From NCBI GenBank assembly GCA_043809585.1, contig JBDROZ010000070.1, positions 15,122 through 79,121 on the forward strand: DNA of 64,000 bases, given 5' to 3'. A program made the position numbers and the translations under genes. Under the pieces are notes generated by a model. The model was given only the letters and a program-made list of their open reading frames with translations, was not told the DNA's origin and did not search any database. Positions 51,607 to 61,493 of this stretch are shown piece after piece; position 1 is the first letter of the stretch; each line of letters begins with the position of its first letter. The DNA comes from Candidatus Eiseniibacteriota bacterium. GTDB taxonomy: Bacteria; Orphanbacterota; Orphanbacteria; Orphanbacterales; Orphanbacteraceae.

Positions 51607-53876
<2,270 letters not shown>

Positions 53877-53887
<11 letters not shown>

Positions 53888-54980
53888 GAACCACCATCCC
53901 CTCTTCCGGCAGCGAGAAGCGGACCGCGTCCGGAAAGTACCTTTCCAGGTCGCTCCGGTCGGTGCCGGTGGCAAAGACCTGCCCTTCGCCGGCGAGTCTC
54001 TCGGCGAGGGCGAGCGAACGGCCCTCGTCGAGTTCGGTGAAGACGTCGTCGAGCAGGAGGAGGGGCGACTCCTTCGTGACCCGCCGCATCAACCTCCCGG
54101 CGGCGATCTTCAGGGCGAGCACCGCCGTGCGGTGTTGGCCCCGGGATCCGAAACTGCGGATCGTCTTCCCGCCGAGGAGGATCTCCACATCGTCCAGATG
54201 GGGTCCCACCGAGGTGCGCCCCGTCCGGAGATCCCGCTCCCGGTGCATTCGCAGCTTACGGACGAAAGCCTCTTCCGAAGCTCCGTCGTCGCCCCTCACG
54301 CCCGGCACGTACGCGACTTCCAGTCTCTCGCCCCCGCCGAGCTCGCCGTACACACCCTCCGCGATCGGTCCGAGCTCTTCCAGCGCCTCCCTCCTCATCT
54401 CGAGAAGGGGCGTCGCGAAGCGGGCGAGCTGGCGATCCCACGGATCGAGAAGAGCACCGCCGCCGCGGCCGAAGCCCTCCCGGAGGAGGCGGCCCCTGTG
54501 GCGGTGCACCCTTTGATACTCCTGCAGCGAGCGGAGGTAGACGCCGGACAAGGTGCAGAGCGTGAGATCGAGGAACTGGCGCCTGCGCTCCGGCTCTCCC
54601 CTCGTGATATCCACATCCTCGGGCGATACGAACACGACACCGCACCGTCCGACCATTTCGCTGAGCCTGGCGACCTCTTTCCGGTCAACGCTCCCCCGCT
54701 TGCCCGCGCCTTCCTCGTAAACGAGAGCGAGGGTCGTCCGCCCACCGCCCCCCTTCCGCAATTCTCCGGCCACCGAGAATGCGCGGCTTTCGAATCGGAC
54801 CAGCTCGGCGTCTCTGCGGGTGCGGTGGGATCGGGTCGCGCCGAGGAGGAAGATCGCCTCGAGGAGATTCGTCTTTCCCCTTCCGTTCGGTCCCCAGATC
54901 GCGGCGGAGCGTCCCTCGAAACCGATTTCGAGACTCCGAAAATTGCGGAAATCCGCGAGCCGCAGGGTTTCGAGAATCAC
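53877..54980 (-). CDS. recF: DNA replication and repair protein RecF
   Basis: Walker A GPNGRGKTNLLEAI, ABC signature and Walker B LLLDDV. Confidence 0.85.
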
Positions 54981-55004
54981 CTCCCGATCCCGTCCCGCTC
55001 CGGC

Positions 55005-56123
55005 CTACTCGGCCAGGCGCAGAGGCATGAGGAGACAGAAGTAATGCTCGTCCTTCTCCTGCTCCATCGGTTCGAGAATCGCCGCTTTGATCGGCGTGTC
55101 GAGACAGAGCTTCACCTTCTCCCCGTCCAGGTTCTTCAGAATGTCGGTGAGATACGACGAGTTGTAGCCGATGTCCATCTTTTCCTCGCCGTACTCCGCC
55201 TCGATCTGATCGGTCGCTTCCCCGAGATCGGGAGTGTTCGACCGGAAGACTATCGAATTCTTCTCGAGGGACACCTGGACCTGATGGGTCAAGGTGTCGG
55301 AAAGAATCGCCACTCGGCGGCACGCGGTCATCGCCTTGGTACGATCGATGACGGCGATCTTTTCGTTGCTCTTCGGAATCACCTGCTCATAACGCGGAAA
55401 GGGGCCCTCGAGAAGCCGCGAATAGATAATCGTCCGCCCGAAGGAAAAAACCAGGTAGTTGTTGTCCACCGTGATGTCCACGTCCTCGTTTGCCTGCTCG
55501 CCGCAGAGGTAGGCCATCTGGCCGAGCGCCTTCGGTGAGACGAGAAACTCCTTGCGTCCCTTTACGGGGAACTTGCCGTTCTTTTCTATCTTCGCGAGGC
55601 GGTAGCCGTCGGTGCAGACCATCTCCATGCGGAGAGGCTCGACGCGCCAGAAGACGCCGTTCAGGGCGGGCCTCGTCTCGTCCTTCGAAACGGCGAACGC
55701 GGTTTTGGAGATCATGCGCTGCAGCGTGCCGCCGGGAAGCGCGATCTTTTCTTTCGACTGGATTGCCGGAGTCTTGGGAAACTCCTCTTCCGCGATACCC
55801 ATGATCCCGTACTTGGTTTCGCCGCACTCGATGCGGATCTTAGTCTCTCCTTCGAGAGAGAAACGGATCTTGTCGTCCGGAAGAAGACGGACTATTTCTC
55901 CGAGCCGGCGGGCAGGAACGGTGATGACCCCCTCGGTCTTCACCTTGGCCGGGACCGTCGTGGAGATCGACGTGTCCAGATCGGTGCAAACGATGGTGAC
56001 CTCGTCCTTCTTCACCTCGAGCAGGAGGTTCGAAAGAACGGGGAGCGTCGTTTTCGGTGGAACGATGTGGAGGACCAGATCCAACGTCCGGGAGAGGTCC
56101 GCCTTTTCGATCACGAATTCCAT
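55005..56123 (-). CDS. dnaN: DNA polymerase III beta sliding clamp
   Basis: MEFVIEKADLSRTLDLV...TTLPVLSNLLLE three-domain clamp; start at ATG 56123 after an AGGAGG SD. Confidence 0.85.
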   Translation of the reverse strand: MEFVIEKADLSRTLDLVLHIVPPKTTLPVLSNLLLEVKKDEVTIVCTDLDTSISTTVPAKVKTEGVITVPARRLGEIVRLLPDDKIRFSLEGETKIRIECGETKYGIMGIAEEEFPKTPAIQSKEKIALPGGTLQRMISKTAFAVSKDETRPALNGVFWRVEPLRMEMVCTDGYRLAKIEKNGKFPVKGRKEFLVSPKALGQMAYLCGEQANEDVDITVDNNYLVFSFGRTIIYSRLLEGPFPRYEQVIPKSNEKIAVIDRTKAMTACRRVAILSDTLTHQVQVSLEKNSIVFRSNTPDLGEATDQIEAEYGEEKMDIGYNSSYLTDILKNLDGEKVKLCLDTPIKAAILEPMEQEKDEHYFCLLMPLRLAE

Positions 56124-56229
56124 GAATGTCCTCCTGGACACAGAAAGATAGGTCCCGTCGAGGAGCCCGCGGCTCGCGGCTTCCGTACGCGCATTATAGG
56201 AGACCGCCCCGGAACGGGCAAGGGAAAAC

Positions 56230-56700
56230 ACCCCGGTAGAAATTGCTATAACACAAACATTGTCATTTGATTACGGGATCGCATTTTGGACGAGCCTAAA
56301 ACGAATCGTTCACAATAATAGTCCCTTCTTCTTCTGAATAAGATCTCTAGTAGTAGTAGTAGGGGCTGCGGATATGTGGACAAAAGCACGGGAAGCCGTC
56401 TCTCTCTCGAATTCGAGGTCCTCCGTCGAGTGAGTCGTCCACGGGCTTGTGGACGACCTCCGGAGAAAGGGACGACTTGTCCACCGTCCCCCGGGGAGGA
56501 CCGATCCGTCCACCGATCGGGCCTCTTCTTCCACGAGTCATGCACCGGTTTGTCCACGGGCGATCTTCCTGTCCTCTTCCTTGGTGTTTTCCGTTACTTT
56601 CGTGGTCTTCCTCTCCGGAGAAGGAACCCTGAAGCATTATGTGAGCATTAGTGAATGCGAGCACTGCGGCAGATGACGTGCCATCGCGCGAGCGTCAGCG
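56230..56700. promoter_or_regulatory. Chromosomal replication origin (oriC): AT-rich unwinding element plus DnaA-box cluster between dnaN and dnaA
   Basis: AT-rich 56240-56360 (tgctataacacaaacattgtcatttg..., aataatag, tagtagtagtag). DnaA-box variants: TGTGGACAA 56375-83, TCGTCCACG 56445-53, TGTGGACGA 56458-66, TTGTCCACC 56487-95, CCGTCCACC 56516-24, TTGTCCACG 56560-68. Confidence 0.55.
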
Positions 56701-56893
56701 ATTCGCACCGGGATTTCTTGCCGGATTAACCTGGGTTATGCATGAATCTCCGTCACGAGGGCTCGGATCGCCTGACGAGCCGCCACCGGAGGCGTAGTTA
56801 TACACTACGCCGAGGAGGCGGCGATGGAAAGGAGGCTTCGCAGGCGGCGATCCGAGATCGCAGTAGGAGATTTGTGCATAATCCAGGTTAAGG

Positions 56894-58255
56894 CTAGGCC
56901 GCGATGTGGTCGACGATCTTGTCGACTTTCGCACGGAAGCCTTCGTCCGCGCCGGTCAGGCGTTCGATCTTCTGGCATGCGTGGAGCACCGTCGAGTGGT
57001 CCCGATTCCCGAAACGCGCGCCGATCTGGCTGAGCGAAAGCCCCGTGAGCTCCCGGGCGAGGTACATGGCGATCTGTCGCGCCAGGGCGAGATCGGCGGT
57101 ACGCCGCTTGGAGAGCATTGCTTCCAGCGGGAGATCGAACTGGTCCGCCACGACCCGCTGGATCGCCTCCACCGTAGCCGCCCGGGCCTTCTTGGAGAGG
57201 AAGTCCTTCAATATTTCCCGGGCCATCTCGATCTTGATGTCCTGCCCCGTGAGGGACGAGAAGGCCAGGAGGCGCACCAGGGAACCCTCGAGCTCTCGGA
57301 TGTTCGAGCGGATCGAGTTGGCGATGAAGAGAAGCACGTCGTCCGGAATGGAGAGGCTTTCCGATTCCGCCTTCTTCCTTAGAATCGCGATCCGCGTCTC
57401 GAGATCGGCCGGCTGGATGTCCGCCACCAATCCCCACTCGAAGCGGGAAACGAGACGCTCTTCGAGGTTCGTGATGTCCTTCGGCATGCGGTCGCTCGTC
57501 AGGACGATCTGCTTCCGGGCGTTGTAGAGCGCGTTGAAAGTGTGGAAGAACTCCTCCTGGGTGCTCTCCTTCCCCGCGAGGAACTGGACATCGTCGATCA
57601 GAAGAAGGTCCACATTCCGGTAGCGCTCCTTGAAGTGCAGGGTGGATCCGTTTTGGATCGACTGAATCATCTCGTTCATGAAGCTCTCGGCCGAGACGTA
57701 ATGGACCGTGTAGCCCCGGTTCTTCTCTTCCACTCGGTGGCCGATTGCCTGAATGATGTGGGTCTTACCGAGGCCCGTTCCGCCGTACACGAAGAGGGGG
57801 TTGTAGATCTGGGCGGGGTTCTCCGCGACCGCCTGGGCGGCGGCGTGGGCGAACTGGTTCGACCGGCCGACCACGAAGGAGGAGAACGTGAACCGGTCGT
57901 TCAGCCGCGGGTTTGGTCCCCCATTCCGGGGTGCCCGGGCCGGGACCGCCGGGTCGGGTGTCTTCCCGGCGTGATCCCGTGCCGCGGGCTTGGGCCTGCG
58001 GAGAGGCTCGTCGGAGACGGTAAAGTCGATCTCCGGCGGAGGTGAACCGAGCGCCTCACCGAGGCTCCTTCGGATGAGCGAAAGGTGATTGTCCTTCAGC
58101 CAATCCGCGAAAAACTGGTTCGGCACCTGGATCCGGACCCCCTCCGCCGAGCAAGAGACACAGCGGGTGGGGAGGAACCAGGCCTCGAAAGTCTGAGGGG
58201 GCACCGCTTTCCGGATGGCAGTCAGCGCTTCATTCCAGAGTTCGGAGGGAGACAT
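56894..58255 (-). CDS. dnaA: Chromosomal replication initiator DnaA
   Basis: Walker A GGTGLGKTHI, LLIDDVQFL, sensor and C-terminal DnaA-box-binding HTH (LSKRRTADLALARQIAMYLAREL). Confidence 0.9.
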   Translation of the reverse strand: MSPSELWNEALTAIRKAVPPQTFEAWFLPTRCVSCSAEGVRIQVPNQFFADWLKDNHLSLIRRSLGEALGSPPPEIDFTVSDEPLRRPKPAARDHAGKTPDPAVPARAPRNGGPNPRLNDRFTFSSFVVGRSNQFAHAAAQAVAENPAQIYNPLFVYGGTGLGKTHIIQAIGHRVEEKNRGYTVHYVSAESFMNEMIQSIQNGSTLHFKERYRNVDLLLIDDVQFLAGKESTQEEFFHTFNALYNARKQIVLTSDRMPKDITNLEERLVSRFEWGLVADIQPADLETRIAILRKKAESESLSIPDDVLLFIANSIRSNIRELEGSLVRLLAFSSLTGQDIKIEMAREILKDFLSKKARAATVEAIQRVVADQFDLPLEAMLSKRRTADLALARQIAMYLARELTGLSLSQIGARFGNRDHSTVLHACQKIERLTGADEGFRAKVDKIVDHIAA

Positions 58256-58282
58256 GAATGGTGACTCCTGGGTTATCCTCGC

Positions 58283-58377
58283 TTATCCACAGAGAAAACC
58301 TATCTTTTCCACAGGTCTCGGGGGTAACCCCGGGAGAAGAGACAAAAACCCCCCTGTTTATCCACATATGTGGACAA
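58283..58377. promoter_or_regulatory. DnaA boxes upstream of dnaA (dnaA-rpmH divergent region)
   Basis: Perfect TTATCCACA at 58283-58291. TTTTCCACA at 58305-13. Convergent pair TTATCCACA (58358-66) / TGTGGACAA (58369-77). Confidence 0.5.
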
Positions 58378-58835
58378 ATTAACAACTCCTTACACAGCAG
58401 TTAGTTGAATCCGGAAATCGGGCGGGCGCCGTCCGGTCGGACCCGAGAAGGGGCGCACGTGGGCGTGGAATCCGCGCGAAGATGTCGAAAACGGATGTCG
58501 GTATGAGGATTGTATCCACACCCCGGACGGGATCCGCGAGATCACCGTGAGCGATGAGCATCGTAGCACGCGAAAAAGGAAGCGATCAAGGTTTTTCTCC
58601 GTGCCCCCCCGGGATTTTTGCACAGGCTAACCGATTCAATGATAATAAGAAGCGCGAAGCGGCCTCTCCTGGGGATATCTTTTCCTCCGAAACCTCTTGT
58701 CCGAGGAACGAGGGGGGGGCGATTCCCCTTGACACAACCCCACCCCCCCCATAGACTTTCCCCCAAAGTGGGAGTGTTTCTCGAATGGTCCGGCGGCACG
58801 GTCGCCGGACTCGGCACTTGACGAGGGAAATCGAC

Positions 58836-58970
58836 TTGAAGAGAACGTTTCAACCAAGCAACAAGAGGAAAAAGAGAAACCACGGGTTCCGGGCCCGCAT
58901 GAGGACCCGGGGGGGGCGCGCCGTACTCGCGCGTCGCCGGGCTAAGGGGAGAAAACGGCTCACTCCGTAG
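58836..58970 (+). CDS. rpmH: 50S ribosomal protein L34
   Basis: [43 protein letters not shown] is near-consensus L34. TTG 58836 gives the canonical 44 aa; the in-frame ATG at 58785 would add an atypical 17-aa extension. Confidence 0.75.
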
Positions 58971-59387
58971 GTGAAGCTCTTGCAAGAGCGGAAGGTACGC
59001 CAAACGCTGCGCAGGTCGGAGAGGCTCCGCCAAAGGAAGGACTTCGATCGGCTGTTCCGCCAGAGCCGGGTCGCCCGAGGCGAGGACTTCCGAGTCCACT
59101 ATTTCCATCGAGACCCTGCGGGCCCGATTCCGGCGCGGGCGGCGTTTGTGGCGGGACGAAGAATCGGCAATTCGGTTACGCGAAACCGCATCAAGCGACT
59201 GCTCCGCGAGGCGTTTCGAAGGATCAAGAAGGACCTGAACCCCGCCCCTATCGACCTCGTCTTCGTGGCGAATCGCGATTTCTCGGGCCGGAGTTCGGGG
59301 GAAGTGACGGATCGGATGAGGGAACTCATGGCCAAGATCGGGGCCCTCGCCGAATCCGGGGCGTCCGGCGACGGCCCCGCGACATGA
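58971..59387 (+). CDS. rnpA: Ribonuclease P protein component
   Basis: Basic RNR motif region ([15 protein letters not shown]); GTG immediately after the rpmH stop. Confidence 0.75.
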
Positions 59388-59593
59388 GATCGTTCTTGAT
59401 CCTTCTGATTCGCGCCTATCGTTTCTGCGTATCCCCTCTCTTTCCCGCTTCCTGCCGGTTCGAACCCTCCTGTTCCGCCTACGCCCTCGAGGCCGTGGAA
59501 CGCCACGGGTCGGCTCGGGGCGCGTGGGTGGCCGCCCGGCGTCTCCTCCGCTGCCATCCCTTTCACGAGGGAGGCCACGACCCGGTCCCCTAG
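59384..59593 (+). CDS. yidD: Membrane protein insertion efficiency factor YidD
   Basis: [35 protein letters not shown] is the conserved YidD/haemolytic-domain motif. Confidence 0.8.
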
Positions 59594-59696
59594 GGCCCGC
59601 CCCTTGCCGGGGCTCCCCGGGGTGGTGTCATCCGGGCCGCGCCTTCCTCTCGGAAAGCAGAACCGGGGCGAACGCTCCGCGACGCGTGGTAAATAA

Positions 59697-61493
59697 ATGG
59701 ACCGAAAAGCCCTCTATGCCATCGTCCTCTCGACGCTGCTGATCATCACGTACCAGATCGTCTTCGTGAAGCCGCCGGAGAACCTCCCCTTGGACGAGGG
59801 GATGGTCCAGAAGGGGGCGAGCCGTCCCGAGGCCGGCGTGCCCAGACCGGACGCCGGTGCAACGATCTCGCCGACGCCCCCGCCCGGAGGCGAGCCGGTC
59901 CTCGGGGCGATCCCGGAGGTCGGCCTGGAAGAGGAGCCGGTGGAGTGGGCGACGATCCCCGTCGAGACGCCTCTCTACGCGCTCACCATCGACACCCGGG
60001 GGGCGACAATCCGGGACCTCCGCCTTGTCGAGTTCGAGGGGGAGGAGGATGGTCCGGTAGTGCTCGTCCCGAACGAGGGCCCCGGCGGACTCGGGCTGAT
60101 CCTCAAGGTCCGGGACGGCGAGATCGATCTCCGGGGGACGGTCTTCCGGGCCGACCGGGACCGCGTGAGACTCCGGGGACCCGAAGGGCCCGACGCCGAA
60201 TCGCGGGTCACCCTCGAGCGCACACTCGCCAACGGCCTCACCGTGAAACGGATCTTCAAGTTCCGGGCCGACTCGTATCGGATCGACGTGGACCAGGTGA
60301 TCTCCCGCGGGCCGTCGGCGCCCGAGGTCTACTCCTACCGCCTCCTGTGGGAGCCGGGGATCGCCTTTACCGAAGGGGACCCGGAAAACGAGAAGCGGGA
60401 GATGGGCGCCGTCACGTTCACTGCCGGCAAGGCGATCACCGACAAAGCGGGGAAGGTGAAAGAGGGCGAGCCGGTGGAGCGGACCGGCGCCCGCTGGGCG
60501 GCGGTGAAGAACAAGTACTTCGCCATCGCCCTCGCCCCCGACGAACGGGCCGACGCGGACGTGATGATCCACCGCATGGGCGAGGAAGAGCGGGTCTTTC
60601 TCGACATGAGGATCGCCATGCCCGATCCGGTGCGGAACGAGACCGGGATCGGCATCTATGCCGTGCCCCTCGAGATGGACCTGCTGAAGGGGGAGGGGAT
60701 CGGTCTCGAAGGACTCATCGACCTCGGGTGGGTCTACATTCGCCCGATCTCGGGCCTCACGCTCACGGCGATCAACTTCCTCTACAAGTACGTGCCGAAC
60801 TACGGCGTCGTGATCATCCTCATCTCGCTGATCACGAAGATCCTCTTCTACCGGCTCACGCACAAGAGCTTCAAGTCCATGAAGGACATGCAGAAGATCC
60901 AGGGACAGGTCAGCGCCCTCAAGGAGAAGTACAAGGGGGACGCGCAGCGGCTGAACAAGGAGACGATGGCGCTCTACAAGCGCGAAGGCGTAAACCCCCT
61001 CGGCGGATGCCTTCCCATGCTCCTGCAGATGCCGGTGTTCATCGCCCTCTACCAGGTCCTCCAGAGAACGATCGGGCTCCGCAGGGCGCCGTTCATGCTC
61101 TGGATGGACGACCTCTCCCGGCCGGACGTTCTGACCAACCTGCCCTTCGCCCTCCCCTTCCTGGGAACGCACCTGAGCCTTCTGCCGCTCCTCATGGGCG
61201 CGTCCATGATCCTGCAGCAGAAGATGACCACCGTAGACCCGCGGCAGAAAGCGCTGGTCTACATGATGCCCGTCTTCATGACGGTTCTCTTTTACCGGCT
61301 GCCGTCCGGCCTCGTGCTGTACTGGTTCGTGAACAACGTGCTCTCGATCGGCCAGCAGTACCTGATCCACAGAGGAGACGGCAAGGGGGACGAGCCGGCT
61401 ACCGACGCGAAGACGACCCGACAAAGCGGCAAGAGCACCAAGGGCCGGGGGCGCGGACGAAGCGGCGCCTCACCGGCGAAGGAGACATCATGA
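59697..61493 (+). CDS. yidC: Membrane protein insertase YidC
   Basis: N-terminal TM, large periplasmic domain, C-terminal 5-TM core (GVNPLGGCLPMLLQMPVFIALY...LPSGLVLYWFVNN). Confidence 0.85.
   Translation: MDRKALYAIVLSTLLIITYQIVFVKPPENLPLDEGMVQKGASRPEAGVPRPDAGATISPTPPPGGEPVLGAIPEVGLEEEPVEWATIPVETPLYALTIDTRGATIRDLRLVEFEGEEDGPVVLVPNEGPGGLGLILKVRDGEIDLRGTVFRADRDRVRLRGPEGPDAESRVTLERTLANGLTVKRIFKFRADSYRIDVDQVISRGPSAPEVYSYRLLWEPGIAFTEGDPENEKREMGAVTFTAGKAITDKAGKVKEGEPVERTGARWAAVKNKYFAIALAPDERADADVMIHRMGEEERVFLDMRIAMPDPVRNETGIGIYAVPLEMDLLKGEGIGLEGLIDLGWVYIRPISGLTLTAINFLYKYVPNYGVVIILISLITKILFYRLTHKSFKSMKDMQKIQGQVSALKEKYKGDAQRLNKETMALYKREGVNPLGGCLPMLLQMPVFIALYQVLQRTIGLRRAPFMLWMDDLSRPDVLTNLPFALPFLGTHLSLLPLLMGASMILQQKMTTVDPRQKALVYMMPVFMTVLFYRLPSGLVLYWFVNNVLSIGQQYLIHRGDGKGDEPATDAKTTRQSGKSTKGRGRGRSGASPAKETS

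What the first reader, a model, noticed from the sequence alone, without database searches (positions are those of the whole stretch)
56123..58377. Bipartite oriC flanking dnaA: DnaA-box cluster plus AT-rich element between dnaN and dnaA, and a second box set upstream of dnaA
The 770-bp dnaN-dnaA spacer holds an AT-rich stretch, unusual in a ~70% GC genome, next to dnaN. It is followed by at least six TTGTCCACA-type DnaA boxes in both orientations within 200 bp. The 580-bp dnaA-rpmH divergent spacer holds a perfect TTATCCACA and a convergent box pair. This matches the Bacillus-type split origin and fixes the window at the replication origin, which is useful for genome orientation of what looks like an uncultured lineage.
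Basis: partly seen in the sequence, partly recalled or inferred. Interest (0 to 1): 0.5.

Follow-up and report, generated by a model that had tools for sequence, protein, structure and literature searches.

The report
Chromosome replication origin around dnaA
This is the chromosomal replication origin of an uncultured Eisenbacteria bacterium, built almost exactly like the well-studied Bacillus subtilis origin, so it is useful for orienting the genome but is mechanistically ordinary.

Summary
The region reads gyrB-dciA-recF-dnaN-dnaA (minus strand), then rpmH-rnpA-yidD-yidC (plus strand), in a Candidatus Eisenbacteria MAG with 66% GC.

Both spacers flanking dnaA are the two densest DnaA-box spots in the 64-kb window. 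The 100 bp at 56247-56346 is the lowest-GC and least stable stretch of the window.

At 56348-56383 lies a textbook basal unwinding system (BUS), read here on the dnaA strand:
- box TTGTCCACA
- abutting degenerate box TATCCGCA
- GC cluster GCCC
- five perfect DnaA-trios (CTA x5, equal to 3'-GAT-5' on the other strand)

The box-to-trio spacer is 12 bp, the same as in B. subtilis. This module is unique in the window and absent from 100 simulated sequences. It is present with the same 12-bp spacing in all 10 related loci. GC skew changes sign near it in all 10.

The encoded DnaA keeps the trio-capture residues.

The upstream box cluster is conserved too, but it lies in the dnaA leader. Whether it is needed for initiation (a truly bipartite origin) or only autoregulates dnaA cannot be decided here.

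Verdict: a new member of a known kind, low interest.

Two side observations remain unexplained: a clade-specific (AAG)3-4 run beyond the trios, and a 170-nt hairpin after dnaA.

The parts
55005..56123 (-). dnaN (DNA polymerase III beta clamp)
   Evidence: TIGR00663, E = 1e-86.
56193..56221 (-). Predicted dnaN promoter: TTGCCC, 17-nt spacer, TATAAT
   Evidence: The promoter scan matches 10 of 12 consensus positions. The same TTGC(C/T)-N17-TATA(A/C)T is seen in the relatives' spacers.
56237..56347 (.). AT-rich DNA unwinding element (DUE), 36% GC
   Evidence: It is the lowest-GC and least stable 100-bp stretch in the 64-kb window. It lies directly distal to the trios, as in B. subtilis and C. difficile (PMC7561715).
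56325..56335 (-). (AAG)n run on the dnaA-sense strand (CTTCTTCTTCT on the + strand), inside the DUE; function unknown
   Evidence: (AAG)3 with at most 1 mismatch lies 11-21 nt after the fifth trio in 7 of 10 clade loci, always on the same strand. The expectation from shuffles is 0.37.
56348..56362 (+). Five DnaA-trios: 5'-TAG-3' x5 on the + strand, which is 3'-GAT-5' x5, the ssDNA strand bound by the DnaA AAA+ oligomer
   Evidence: Read directly from the sequence. The strict BUS scan finds it only here in the window and in 0 of 100 simulations. It is conserved in 10 of 10 clade loci.
56363..56366 (-). GC cluster (GCCC on the dnaA strand) between the boxes and the trios
   Evidence: Aligned with the B. 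subtilis GGCC cluster.
56367..56374 (-). Degenerate proximal DnaA box (TATCCGCA), equivalent to B. subtilis box #7 (AATCCACA)
   Evidence: TATCC is conserved in most clade loci.
56375..56383 (-). BUS anchor DnaA box TTGTCCACA (1 mismatch), equivalent to B. subtilis box #6, 12 bp from the first trio
   Evidence: The identical 13-mer ATATGTGGACAAA recurs at 58366-58378 (repeat D13).
56435..56558 (.). Distal cluster of six weaker DnaA boxes: 56435(+) TCGTCCACG, 56448(-) TCGTCCACA, 56477(+) TTGTCCACC, 56506(+) CCGTCCACC, 56527(+) TCTTCCACG, 56550(+) TTGTCCACG
   Evidence: Comparable clusters of 4-8 box-like words precede the BUS in the relatives.
56724..56893 (-). 170-nt long imperfect palindrome/hairpin starting 2 nt after the dnaA stop codon; lineage-variable, and it accounts for part of the unusually long spacer
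   Evidence: RNA fold -95 kcal/mol, z = -9.4. DNA fold z = -8.9. The left arm is homologous in L170/L211. It is absent from seven other relatives. No Rfam match.
56894..58255 (-). dnaA (initiator)
   Evidence: TIGR00362, E = 2.5e-169. It is 100% identical to a protein named DnaA of a Candidatus Eisenbacteria MAG. It aligns to B. subtilis DnaA (PDB 8btg) with the trio-capture residues kept.
58273..58377 (.). Upstream high-affinity DnaA-box cluster: TTATCCTCG 58273(+), TTATCCACA 58283(+), TTTTCCACA 58305(+), and the palindromic pair TTATCCACA 58358(+) / TTGTCCACA 58369(-)
   Evidence: The cluster and the palindromic pair are conserved in the relatives. It is the second least stable 100-bp stretch of the window.
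58512..58520 (+). Further DnaA box GTATCCACA in the dnaA leader
   Evidence: Equivalent GGTGTGGAT words occur in L083, L085 and L090.
58560..58589 (-). Inferred dnaA promoter: TTGATC, 18-nt spacer, TACGAT with a TG extension. It places the strong boxes in a roughly 300-nt leader.
   Evidence: Seen by eye in 9 of 9 spacers as cTTG..-N17/18-gTG(c/g)TA(c/g/t)(g/c/t)AT. It falls below the threshold of the promoter scan, so this is an inference.
58729..58757 (+). Predicted rpmH promoter: TTGACA, 17-nt spacer, TAGACT
   Evidence: conserved in the relatives.
58836..58970 (+). rpmH (ribosomal protein L34), divergent from dnaA
   Evidence: TIGR01030, E = 5.5e-22.

Best explanation
This is the chromosomal origin (oriC) of a Candidatus Eisenbacteria bacterium. 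Strand opening happens in the dnaA-dnaN spacer through a canonical basal unwinding system (BUS).

Proposed sequence of events:
1. DnaA domain IV docks on the co-oriented boxes TTGTCCACA and TATCCGCA (56367-56383).
2. ATP-DnaA then oligomerises across the 4-bp GC cluster onto the five 3'-GAT-5' trios of the window's + strand (56348-56362). It captures their bases and stretches that strand.
3. The adjacent 36%-GC stretch (56237-56347) melts.
4. DnaB is loaded there, presumably with the DciA encoded four genes away.

The six weaker boxes at 56435-56558 and the high-affinity cluster upstream of dnaA (58273-58520) recruit and concentrate DnaA. The upstream cluster lies in the dnaA leader, so it most likely also autoregulates dnaA.

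What is shown: the elements, their geometry, their conservation, the skew switch and the DnaA residues. What is inferred from B. subtilis, C. difficile and H. pylori: the binding, melting, looping and loading steps.
For: - **Gene context.** gyrB-dciA-recF-dnaN-dnaA / rpmH-rnpA-yidD-yidC.
- **Box enrichment.** 10 hits against 2.2 expected, reached by 0 of 100 shuffles. The two spacers are the top two 200-bp windows for the box core.
- **BUS geometry.** It matches the B. subtilis scaffold TTATCCACA-AATCCACA-GGCC-CTACTATTACTTCTACTA, with a 12-bp spacer (PMC8287927 supplements, compared).
- **Uniqueness.** The strict BUS pattern is unique in 64 kb on both strands and absent from 100 Markov simulations.
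- **Conservation.** The same module with the same 12-bp spacer occurs in 10 of 10 clade loci, whose DnaA is 63-81% identical. Two of these have lost dnaN from the downstream position. Nucleotide-level BLAST links the module to sites just downstream of dnaA in Bacillota, and a strict scan finds a BUS there in 32 of 80 loci from other phyla.
- **Unwinding element.** The DUE is the least stable 100 bp in the window.
- **GC skew.** The cumulative minimum is at 55223. Skew is -0.036 over 35-55 kb and +0.052 over 55-64 kb. The sign change lies within 33-1159 bp of the BUS in all 10 loci.
- **Gene orientation.** All predicted genes from about 29 kb to 58.3 kb are on the minus strand, and all after 58.8 kb are on the plus strand.
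- **DnaA residues.** Window DnaA keeps N194, I197, I200, K229, E230, E235 and R271, equivalent to B. subtilis N187, I190, I193, K222, E223, E228 and R264. R202 is replaced by K (residue roles from PMC10721633).
Against: - No experiment exists for this lineage.
- GC skew could be examined only over 64 kb of a contig listed as 163 kb. It is flat over the first 28 kb, so a global minimum elsewhere is not formally excluded.
- The cumulative minimum in the window itself lies about 1.1 kb from the BUS, inside dnaN.
- The proximal box TATCCGCA is weak.
- The relaxed published BUS criterion (any three NAN triplets) is unspecific: 14 boxes in the window pass it. Only the strict form carries weight.
Confidence: 0.85

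Rival explanations
1. Functionally monopartite origin. oriC proper is confined to the dnaA-dnaN spacer, as in actinobacteria. The upstream boxes (58273-58520) serve only as the operator through which DnaA represses its own transcription.
For: All strong upstream boxes lie downstream of the conserved putative dnaA promoter (58560-58589), inside a roughly 300-nt leader. That is the geometry of a roadblock operator. The upstream spacer has no BUS and no trios. In B. subtilis the unwinding function itself needs only the dnaA-dnaN region in vitro (PMC6669920).
Against: The upstream cluster holds the best boxes of the locus: two perfect and three with one mismatch. This is more than an operator usually needs, and the cluster is conserved across the clade. 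An identical 13-mer ATATGTGGACAAA sits in both spacers in the same orientation. In B. subtilis, H. pylori and C. difficile the equivalent cluster contributes to origin function. The two roles are not mutually exclusive.
Confidence: 0.4
2. Unwinding takes place in the dnaA-rpmH spacer. The dnaA-dnaN boxes are accessory.
For: The upstream spacer has the highest-affinity boxes and the second least stable 100-bp stretch of the window, 58282-58381. The gene-orientation switch is located there.
Against: No trio array follows any upstream box in either orientation. The low stability there is produced by the AT-rich boxes themselves. The GC-skew sign change maps to the dnaA-dnaN side in 10 of 10 loci, with dnaA itself carrying the skew of the rpmH-side flank.
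Confidence: 0.04
3. The region is only a regulatory region for the dnaA-dnaN operon, and the true origin lies elsewhere on the chromosome, as in E. coli or Caulobacter.
For: Only 64 kb could be examined. Skew is weak and flat over 1-28 kb. dnaA-linked boxes exist even in species whose oriC has moved.
Against: A complete BUS with five perfect trios and an adjacent DUE is present and conserved. The skew sign change sits at this spot in 10 independent loci. The gene strand bias diverges here. E. coli-type features are absent: GATC is not enriched (10.4 per kb in the spacer and in the window alike) and there is no 13-mer array.
Confidence: 0.04

Closest known systems
Bacillus subtilis oriC: incC region between dnaA and dnaN with the basal unwinding system (boxes #6/#7, GC cluster, DnaA-trios, AT-rich 27-mer), plus the incA/incB box clusters upstream of dnaA
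   Same: - Same gene context (rpmH / dnaA / dnaN).
- Same order and orientation of the elements.
- Same lengths: 9-bp box, 8-bp box, 4-bp GC cluster, then the trios (12-bp spacer).
- GAT-type trios, with an AT-rich stretch on the dnaN side.
- Distal weaker boxes in the same spacer, and a second box cluster upstream of dnaA.
- The DnaA residues that capture trio bases are conserved.
   Different: - The genome is 66% GC, and the boxes in the unwinding spacer are of the TTGTCCACA type.
- There are five perfect GAT trios rather than a degenerate six.
- The DUE is only moderately AT-rich (36% GC) and carries a clade-specific (AAG)3-4 run.
- The spacer is much longer (770 bp) because of variable DNA that includes a 170-nt hairpin.
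- The locus encodes DciA next to the origin rather than the DnaD/DnaB/DnaI loading system, so the DnaD recognition element logic (PMC10201434) need not apply.
Clostridioides difficile and Helicobacter pylori bipartite origins (oriC1 upstream and oriC2 downstream of dnaA)
   Same: Two box clusters are separated by dnaA. The DUE and trios occur only in the dnaA-downstream part. The C. difficile trio string CACCTACTACTATTACTACTATGA resembles GCCCCTACTACTACTACTAGAG here.
   Different: In those species a requirement for both halves, or DnaA-mediated looping, was shown experimentally. Nothing of the kind is available here.
Actinobacterial oriC (Mycobacterium, Streptomyces) in the dnaA-dnaN spacer of high-GC genomes
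   Same: High-GC host, TTGTCCACA-type boxes and an origin between dnaA and dnaN. This comparison rests on my own knowledge and was not tested here.
   Different: Those origins are usually treated as continuous, with many more boxes. Here a strong, conserved second cluster sits upstream of dnaA.

Membership tests
Basal unwinding system (BUS; Richardson 2016/2019, Pelliciari 2021) | A DnaA box with at most 2 mismatches to TTATCCACA, oriented toward the trios | tested here: met
   TTGTCCACA at 56375-56383 (-), 1 mismatch. Its orientation is the same as B. subtilis box #6 relative to the trios.
Basal unwinding system (BUS; Richardson 2016/2019, Pelliciari 2021) | A spacer of 0-16 bp between the better box and the first trio (mode 10-13), often filled by a second degenerate co-oriented box plus a short GC cluster | tested here: met
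   The spacer is 12 bp: TATCCGCA plus GCCC. B. subtilis has AATCCACA plus GGCC, also 12 bp.
Basal unwinding system (BUS; Richardson 2016/2019, Pelliciari 2021) | At least three consecutive DnaA-trios 3'-NAN-5', preferably 3'-GAT-5' | tested here: met
   Five consecutive perfect 3'-GAT-5' trios at 56348-56362. The strict pattern is unique in the window and occurs in 0 of 100 simulations.
Basal unwinding system (BUS; Richardson 2016/2019, Pelliciari 2021) | [quoted passage not shown] | tested here: met
   56247-56346 is 36% GC and is the least stable 100 bp of the 64 kb.
Basal unwinding system (BUS; Richardson 2016/2019, Pelliciari 2021) | Located in the chromosome origin region (nucleotide-skew switch, dnaA neighbourhood) | tested here: met
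   The local cumulative GC-skew minimum is at 55223, and the sign change is near the BUS in 10 of 10 clade loci. The test is local only; the whole genome was not available.
Basal unwinding system (BUS; Richardson 2016/2019, Pelliciari 2021) | The cognate DnaA has the ssDNA/trio-capture residues and the arginine finger | tested here: met
   N194, I197, I200, K229, E230, E235 and R271 are identical to B. subtilis N187, I190, I193, K222, E223, E228 and R264. R202 is replaced by K209.
Basal unwinding system (BUS; Richardson 2016/2019, Pelliciari 2021) | Box- and trio-dependent strand separation by DnaA (ATP-dependent in the Gram-positive homologs tested) | not testable with these tools
   This needs purified protein and a strand-separation or P1 nuclease assay.
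Bipartite oriC (B. subtilis, H. pylori, C. difficile type) | Two DnaA-box clusters separated by the dnaA gene | tested here: met
   The clusters at 56367-56558 and 58273-58520 are the two densest in the window. Both are conserved in the relatives.
Bipartite oriC (B. subtilis, H. pylori, C. difficile type) | The DUE and trios are present in only one of the two sub-regions | tested here: met
   The strict BUS is found only in the dnaA-dnaN spacer.
Bipartite oriC (B. subtilis, H. pylori, C. difficile type) | Both sub-regions are required for origin activity in vivo, or are bridged by DnaA with dnaA looped out | not testable with these tools
   There is only indirect support: strong conserved upstream boxes, and an identical 13-mer in both spacers.
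E. coli-type oriC | Tandem AT-rich 13-mers (GATCTnTTnTTTT) and a dense GATC cluster, at a location away from dnaA | tested here: not met
   GATC occurs at 10.4 per kb in the spacer and 10.4 per kb in the window. Only scattered 13-mer-like words with 2-3 mismatches are present, and the locus is dnaA-linked.

The most novel reading that the evidence does not exclude
The clade-specific (AAG)3-4 run lies 11-21 nt beyond the trios, at window 56325-56335. Read 3'->5' it is GAA GAA GAA on the strand opposite the canonical trios. In some loci it is followed by a weak inverted DnaA box (window 56306-56314).

On this reading the run is a second, oppositely oriented single-strand recognition array. It would direct DnaA, or the DciA-DnaB loading machinery, to the other strand. 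A DciA-type bacterium would then carry a two-sided unwinding and loading module, playing the role that the DnaD recognition element plays in B. subtilis.
Probability: 0.1. Interest if true: 0.6.

Novelty: new member of a known kind. Interest (0 to 1): 0.2.

Why it matters
- **Genome orientation.** It fixes position zero and the replichore orientation for a MAG of an uncultured candidate phylum (Candidatus Eisenbacteria / Eiseniibacteriota).
- **A defined test substrate.** It gives coordinates (56340-56390) for testing DnaA from that phylum.
- **Reach of the BUS.** It adds a clean data point that the box-box-GC-trio unwinding module, with its exact 12-bp register, is kept in a 66%-GC lineage. 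That lineage encodes DciA next to the origin, whereas B. subtilis uses DnaD/DnaB/DnaI. This fits the published view that the BUS is ancestral.
- **No change to that view.** The finding does not alter it.
- **An open question.** The conserved (AAG)n run in the unwinding element is a small concrete lead on whether origins carry further strand-specific information for helicase loading, a question raised in PMC10201434.

Tried and rejected
- **Rfam.** Permissive thresholds over 54000-60000 found no known RNA family in either spacer, including the hairpin.
- **Spacer ORFs.** The ORFs of 66-188 aa that lie in or overlap the two spacers have no Pfam match. Conservation there is at the level of DNA motifs. 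I therefore treat them, and by inference the 182-aa gene called in the spacer of L081/L082 (not itself scanned), as non-coding.
- **Exact-product look-ups.** The window's DnaA and its 100%-identical database entry P0001 returned nothing. The rest of the contig could not be fetched, so a whole-contig GC skew was not possible.
- **Genome-contig scan with DnaA.** The close relatives came from the protein search plus contig look-ups.
- **Metagenome scan with the hairpin-arm 17-mer.** It gave at least 120 single-match loci, nearly all chance matches aligning over only 19-26 nt. One real homologue turned up, L170, a 1.5-kb contig that ends inside the hairpin.
- **Hairpin as a repeated mobile element.** There is no other copy in the window or in any fetched locus, so this is not supported.
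- **'Mirror BUS' on the opposite strand.** It appears in only 3 of 10 loci, with a 3-mismatch box in the window. That is too weak to claim.
- **E. coli-type features.** GATC clustering and a 13-mer array are absent.


Full report
**Observation**

NCBIfam assigns the following genes:
- gyrB, 51607-53544 (-)
- recF, 53877-54980 (-)
- dnaN, 55005-56123 (-)
- dnaA, 56894-58255 (-)
- rpmH, 58836-58970 (+, TTG start)
- rnpA, yidD and yidC (+)

Pfam adds a DciA gene at 53537 to about 53887 (-) between recF and gyrB.

The consensus box TTATCCACA with at most one mismatch occurs 10 times in the window against 2.2 expected, a count reached by 0 of 100 shuffles. Seven of the ten lie in the two spacers, which together make up 2% of the window.

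The box core [A/G/T]TCCAC gives its two highest 200-bp counts in the whole 64 kb at 56371-56570 (seven) and 58276-58475 (five). The Poisson P for the first cluster is 1e-7.

Only four of the seven downstream boxes are within one mismatch of TTGTCCACA. The upstream spacer has two perfect TTATCCACA rather than one.

The stretch 56247-56346 is 36% GC in a 66% GC window. It is the lowest-GC and least stable 100 bp of the window, about 4.7 sd from the mean.

Between the AT-rich stretch and the nearest box the + strand reads TAGTAGTAGTAGTAG-GGGC-TGCGGATA-TGTGGACAA (56348-56383). On the dnaA strand this is TTGTCCACA-TATCCGCA-GCCC-CTA CTA CTA CTA CTA.

The B. subtilis scaffold used to define the basal unwinding system (BUS) is TTATCCACA-AATCCACA-GGCC-CTA CTA TTA CTT CTA CTA. 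It is tabulated as box (0 mismatches), box (2 mismatches), CCGG, GATGATAATGAAGATGAT, spacer 12 (PMC8287927 supplements).

The window element has the same parts in the same order and orientation. Its 12-bp spacer falls in the published 10-13 bp mode.

A strict scan required a box with at most 2 mismatches, a 0-16 bp spacer, at least three NTN triplets and at least two CTA. It finds this site and nothing else on either strand of the window, and nothing in 100 first-order Markov simulations. The relaxed published criterion is unspecific here: 14 boxes pass it. Only the strict form carries weight.

**Lineage and relatives**

The DnaA is 100% identical to a protein that NCBI names as DnaA of a Candidatus Eisenbacteria MAG. 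The taxonomy is candidate phylum Eiseniibacteriota.

Contigs encoding DnaA proteins 63-81% identical were fetched. In all ten loci of this clade the same module sits downstream of dnaA with the same 12-bp spacing. The loci are the window, L081, L083, L085, L086, L087, L088, L089, L090 and L212.

In L087 and L088 dnaN is no longer downstream of dnaA, yet the module is still there. It travels with dnaA, not with dnaN.

BLASTN of the window spacer also hits the equivalent site just downstream of dnaA in several Bacillota. A strict scan finds a BUS downstream of dnaA in 32 of 80 loci from many phyla, nearly all with a 12-bp spacer. The element is thus an ordinary member of a very widespread kind.

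**Origin position**

In the window the cumulative G-C minimum is at 55223. Skew is -0.036 over 35-55 kb and +0.052 over 55-64 kb. By a GC3-filtered ORF call, every gene from about 29 kb to 58.3 kb is on the minus strand, and every gene after 58.8 kb is on the plus strand.

In all ten clade loci the skew is negative on the rpmH side and positive on the dnaN side of the BUS. The local cumulative minimum lies 33-1159 bp from the BUS. dnaA itself carries the skew of the rpmH-side flank, which points to the dnaA-dnaN spacer rather than the dnaA-rpmH spacer as the switch point.

This is local evidence only. The rest of the contig could not be retrieved, and skew is flat over the first 28 kb.

**Protein side**

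Aligned to B. subtilis DnaA from the BUS cryo-EM entry 8btg, the window protein keeps N194, I197, I200, K229, E230, E235 and the arginine finger R271. These correspond to B. subtilis N187, I190, I193, K222, E223, E228 and R264. B. subtilis R202 is K209 here.

The first six of these residues, together with R202, were reported to contact or flank the captured trio bases or the trio-strand backbone (PMC10721633). R264 is the arginine finger needed for scaffold unwinding (PMC8287927).

**Upstream cluster**

The dnaA-rpmH spacers of the relatives share several features:
- the palindromic pair TTATCCACA-N2-TGTGGAyAA, followed by GGGGG...TTGTCTCT
- one to three further TGTGGATAA boxes just before the dnaA start
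- a box pair nearer to rpmH
- a conserved rpmH promoter
- a conserved cTTG-N17/18-gTGcTAcgAT motif that I read as the dnaA promoter (window 58560-58589)

That promoter is an inference, because it falls below the scan threshold. If it is right, the strong boxes lie in a roughly 300-nt leader, which is the geometry of an autoregulatory operator.

The cluster also holds the best boxes of the locus. It shares an identical 13-mer, ATATGTGGACAAA, in the same orientation with the BUS anchor box. In B. subtilis, H. pylori and C. difficile the equivalent cluster contributes to origin function.

So the architecture is bipartite. Whether the function is bipartite cannot be decided computationally.

**Mechanism**

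The elements are shown; the steps are inferred from the model organisms.
1. DnaA binds the two co-oriented boxes.
2. ATP-DnaA oligomerises onto the 3'-GAT-5' trios of the window's + strand and captures their bases.
3. The adjacent 36%-GC stretch opens.
4. DnaB is loaded, presumably with DciA.
5. The distal and upstream boxes raise the local DnaA concentration, possibly by looping.
6. The upstream boxes also throttle dnaA transcription.

**Comparison and novelty**

All sequence-testable defining features of the BUS are met, and so are both testable features of a bipartite origin. E. coli-type features are absent: GATC is not enriched and there is no 13-mer array.

BUS elements were already predicted in 85% of 2070 species across phyla. 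This is therefore a new member of a known kind. It is useful for genome orientation and not surprising to a specialist.

**Unexplained residue**

1. *The (AAG)n run.* (AAG)3 with at most one mismatch lies 11-21 nt beyond the fifth trio, always on the dnaA-sense strand, in 7 of 10 clade loci. The expectation from composition-preserving shuffles is 0.37. Nothing comparable shows in the 60 nt printed after the BUS of the 32 other-phylum loci (by eye). Read 3'->5' it is GAA GAA GAA, which is trio-like but on the opposite strand. An inverted weak box follows it in 3 of 10 loci. The loci are related, so the count overstates independence.

2. *The hairpin.* The extra length of the window's spacer is variable DNA. 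It includes a 170-nt near-perfect hairpin starting 2 nt after the dnaA stop (RNA fold z = -9.4; DNA fold z = -8.9). Its left arm and apical stem are homologous in a lineage with 74% identical DnaA (L170/L211). By eye, the inner stem shows at least two compensatory changes. The hairpin is missing from closer relatives, and it has no Rfam match and no second copy. Both arms contain TTATGCA(C/T) box-like words.

I could not assign either feature a function.

Noticed in passing
window 56724-56893 (- strand, directly 3' of dnaA): A 170-nt long imperfect palindrome/hairpin starts 2 nt after the dnaA stop (RNA -95 kcal/mol, z = -9.4; DNA z = -8.9). Its left arm and apical stem are homologous in L170/L211, whose DnaA is 74% identical, with apparent compensatory changes. 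It is absent from L081, L083, L085, L086, L089, L090 and L212. There is no Rfam hit and no other copy in the window. Both arms carry TTATGCA(C/T) DnaA-box-like words. It could be a dnaA 3' RNA structure, a cruciform or a decaying insertion.
   Followed up: partly
window 56325-56335 (CTTCTTCTTCT on +); equivalent sites in L081, L083, L088, L089, L090, L212: A clade-specific (AAG)3-4 run sits inside the unwinding element, 11-21 nt beyond the last DnaA-trio. It is always on the dnaA-sense strand and occurs in 7 of 10 loci (expected 0.37). It is trio-like (3'-GAA-5') on the strand opposite the canonical trios. A weak inverted DnaA box follows it in 3 of 10 loci (window 56306-56314).
   Followed up: partly
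window 53537-53887 (-): A DciA gene (PF05258, E = 1.4e-19) lies between recF and gyrB, overlapping the recF end. The same recF-dciA-gyrB order is seen in the relatives. The lineage therefore encodes the DciA helicase operator right next to its origin. The other frame, 53523-53876, has no Pfam hit.
   Followed up: yes
L087 5362-6700 and L088 5452-6220: In two more distant clade members dnaN is not downstream of dnaA (other genes follow), yet the box-GC-trio module is still present 315 and 463 bp after the dnaA stop. The unwinding module stays with dnaA when the dnaA-dnaN linkage breaks.
   Followed up: partly
window 56372-56384 and 58366-58378: An identical 13-mer, ATATGTGGACAAA, occurs in the same orientation at the BUS anchor box and at the upstream palindromic box pair, 1994 bp apart on either side of dnaA.
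   Followed up: no
L081 11444-11992 and L082 4002-4550: A 182-aa gene with no Pfam family is called on the minus strand inside the dnaA-dnaN spacer of the closest relative. It overlaps that relative's DnaA-box cluster and the start of its BUS, so it is probably a false gene call. Window spacer ORFs likewise have no Pfam match.
   Followed up: partly
window 1-28000: GC skew is essentially zero and gene orientation is mixed over the first 28 kb. From about 29 kb to the origin, genes are uniformly on the minus strand and skew is clearly negative. The reason is unknown; it could be weak skew, a rearrangement or acquired DNA.
   Followed up: no
window 58785-58970: rpmH most likely starts at TTG 58836, which is preceded by GAGGGA, giving the usual 44-aa L34. 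An in-frame ATG at 58785 would add 17 residues, but it lacks a ribosome-binding site.
   Followed up: no
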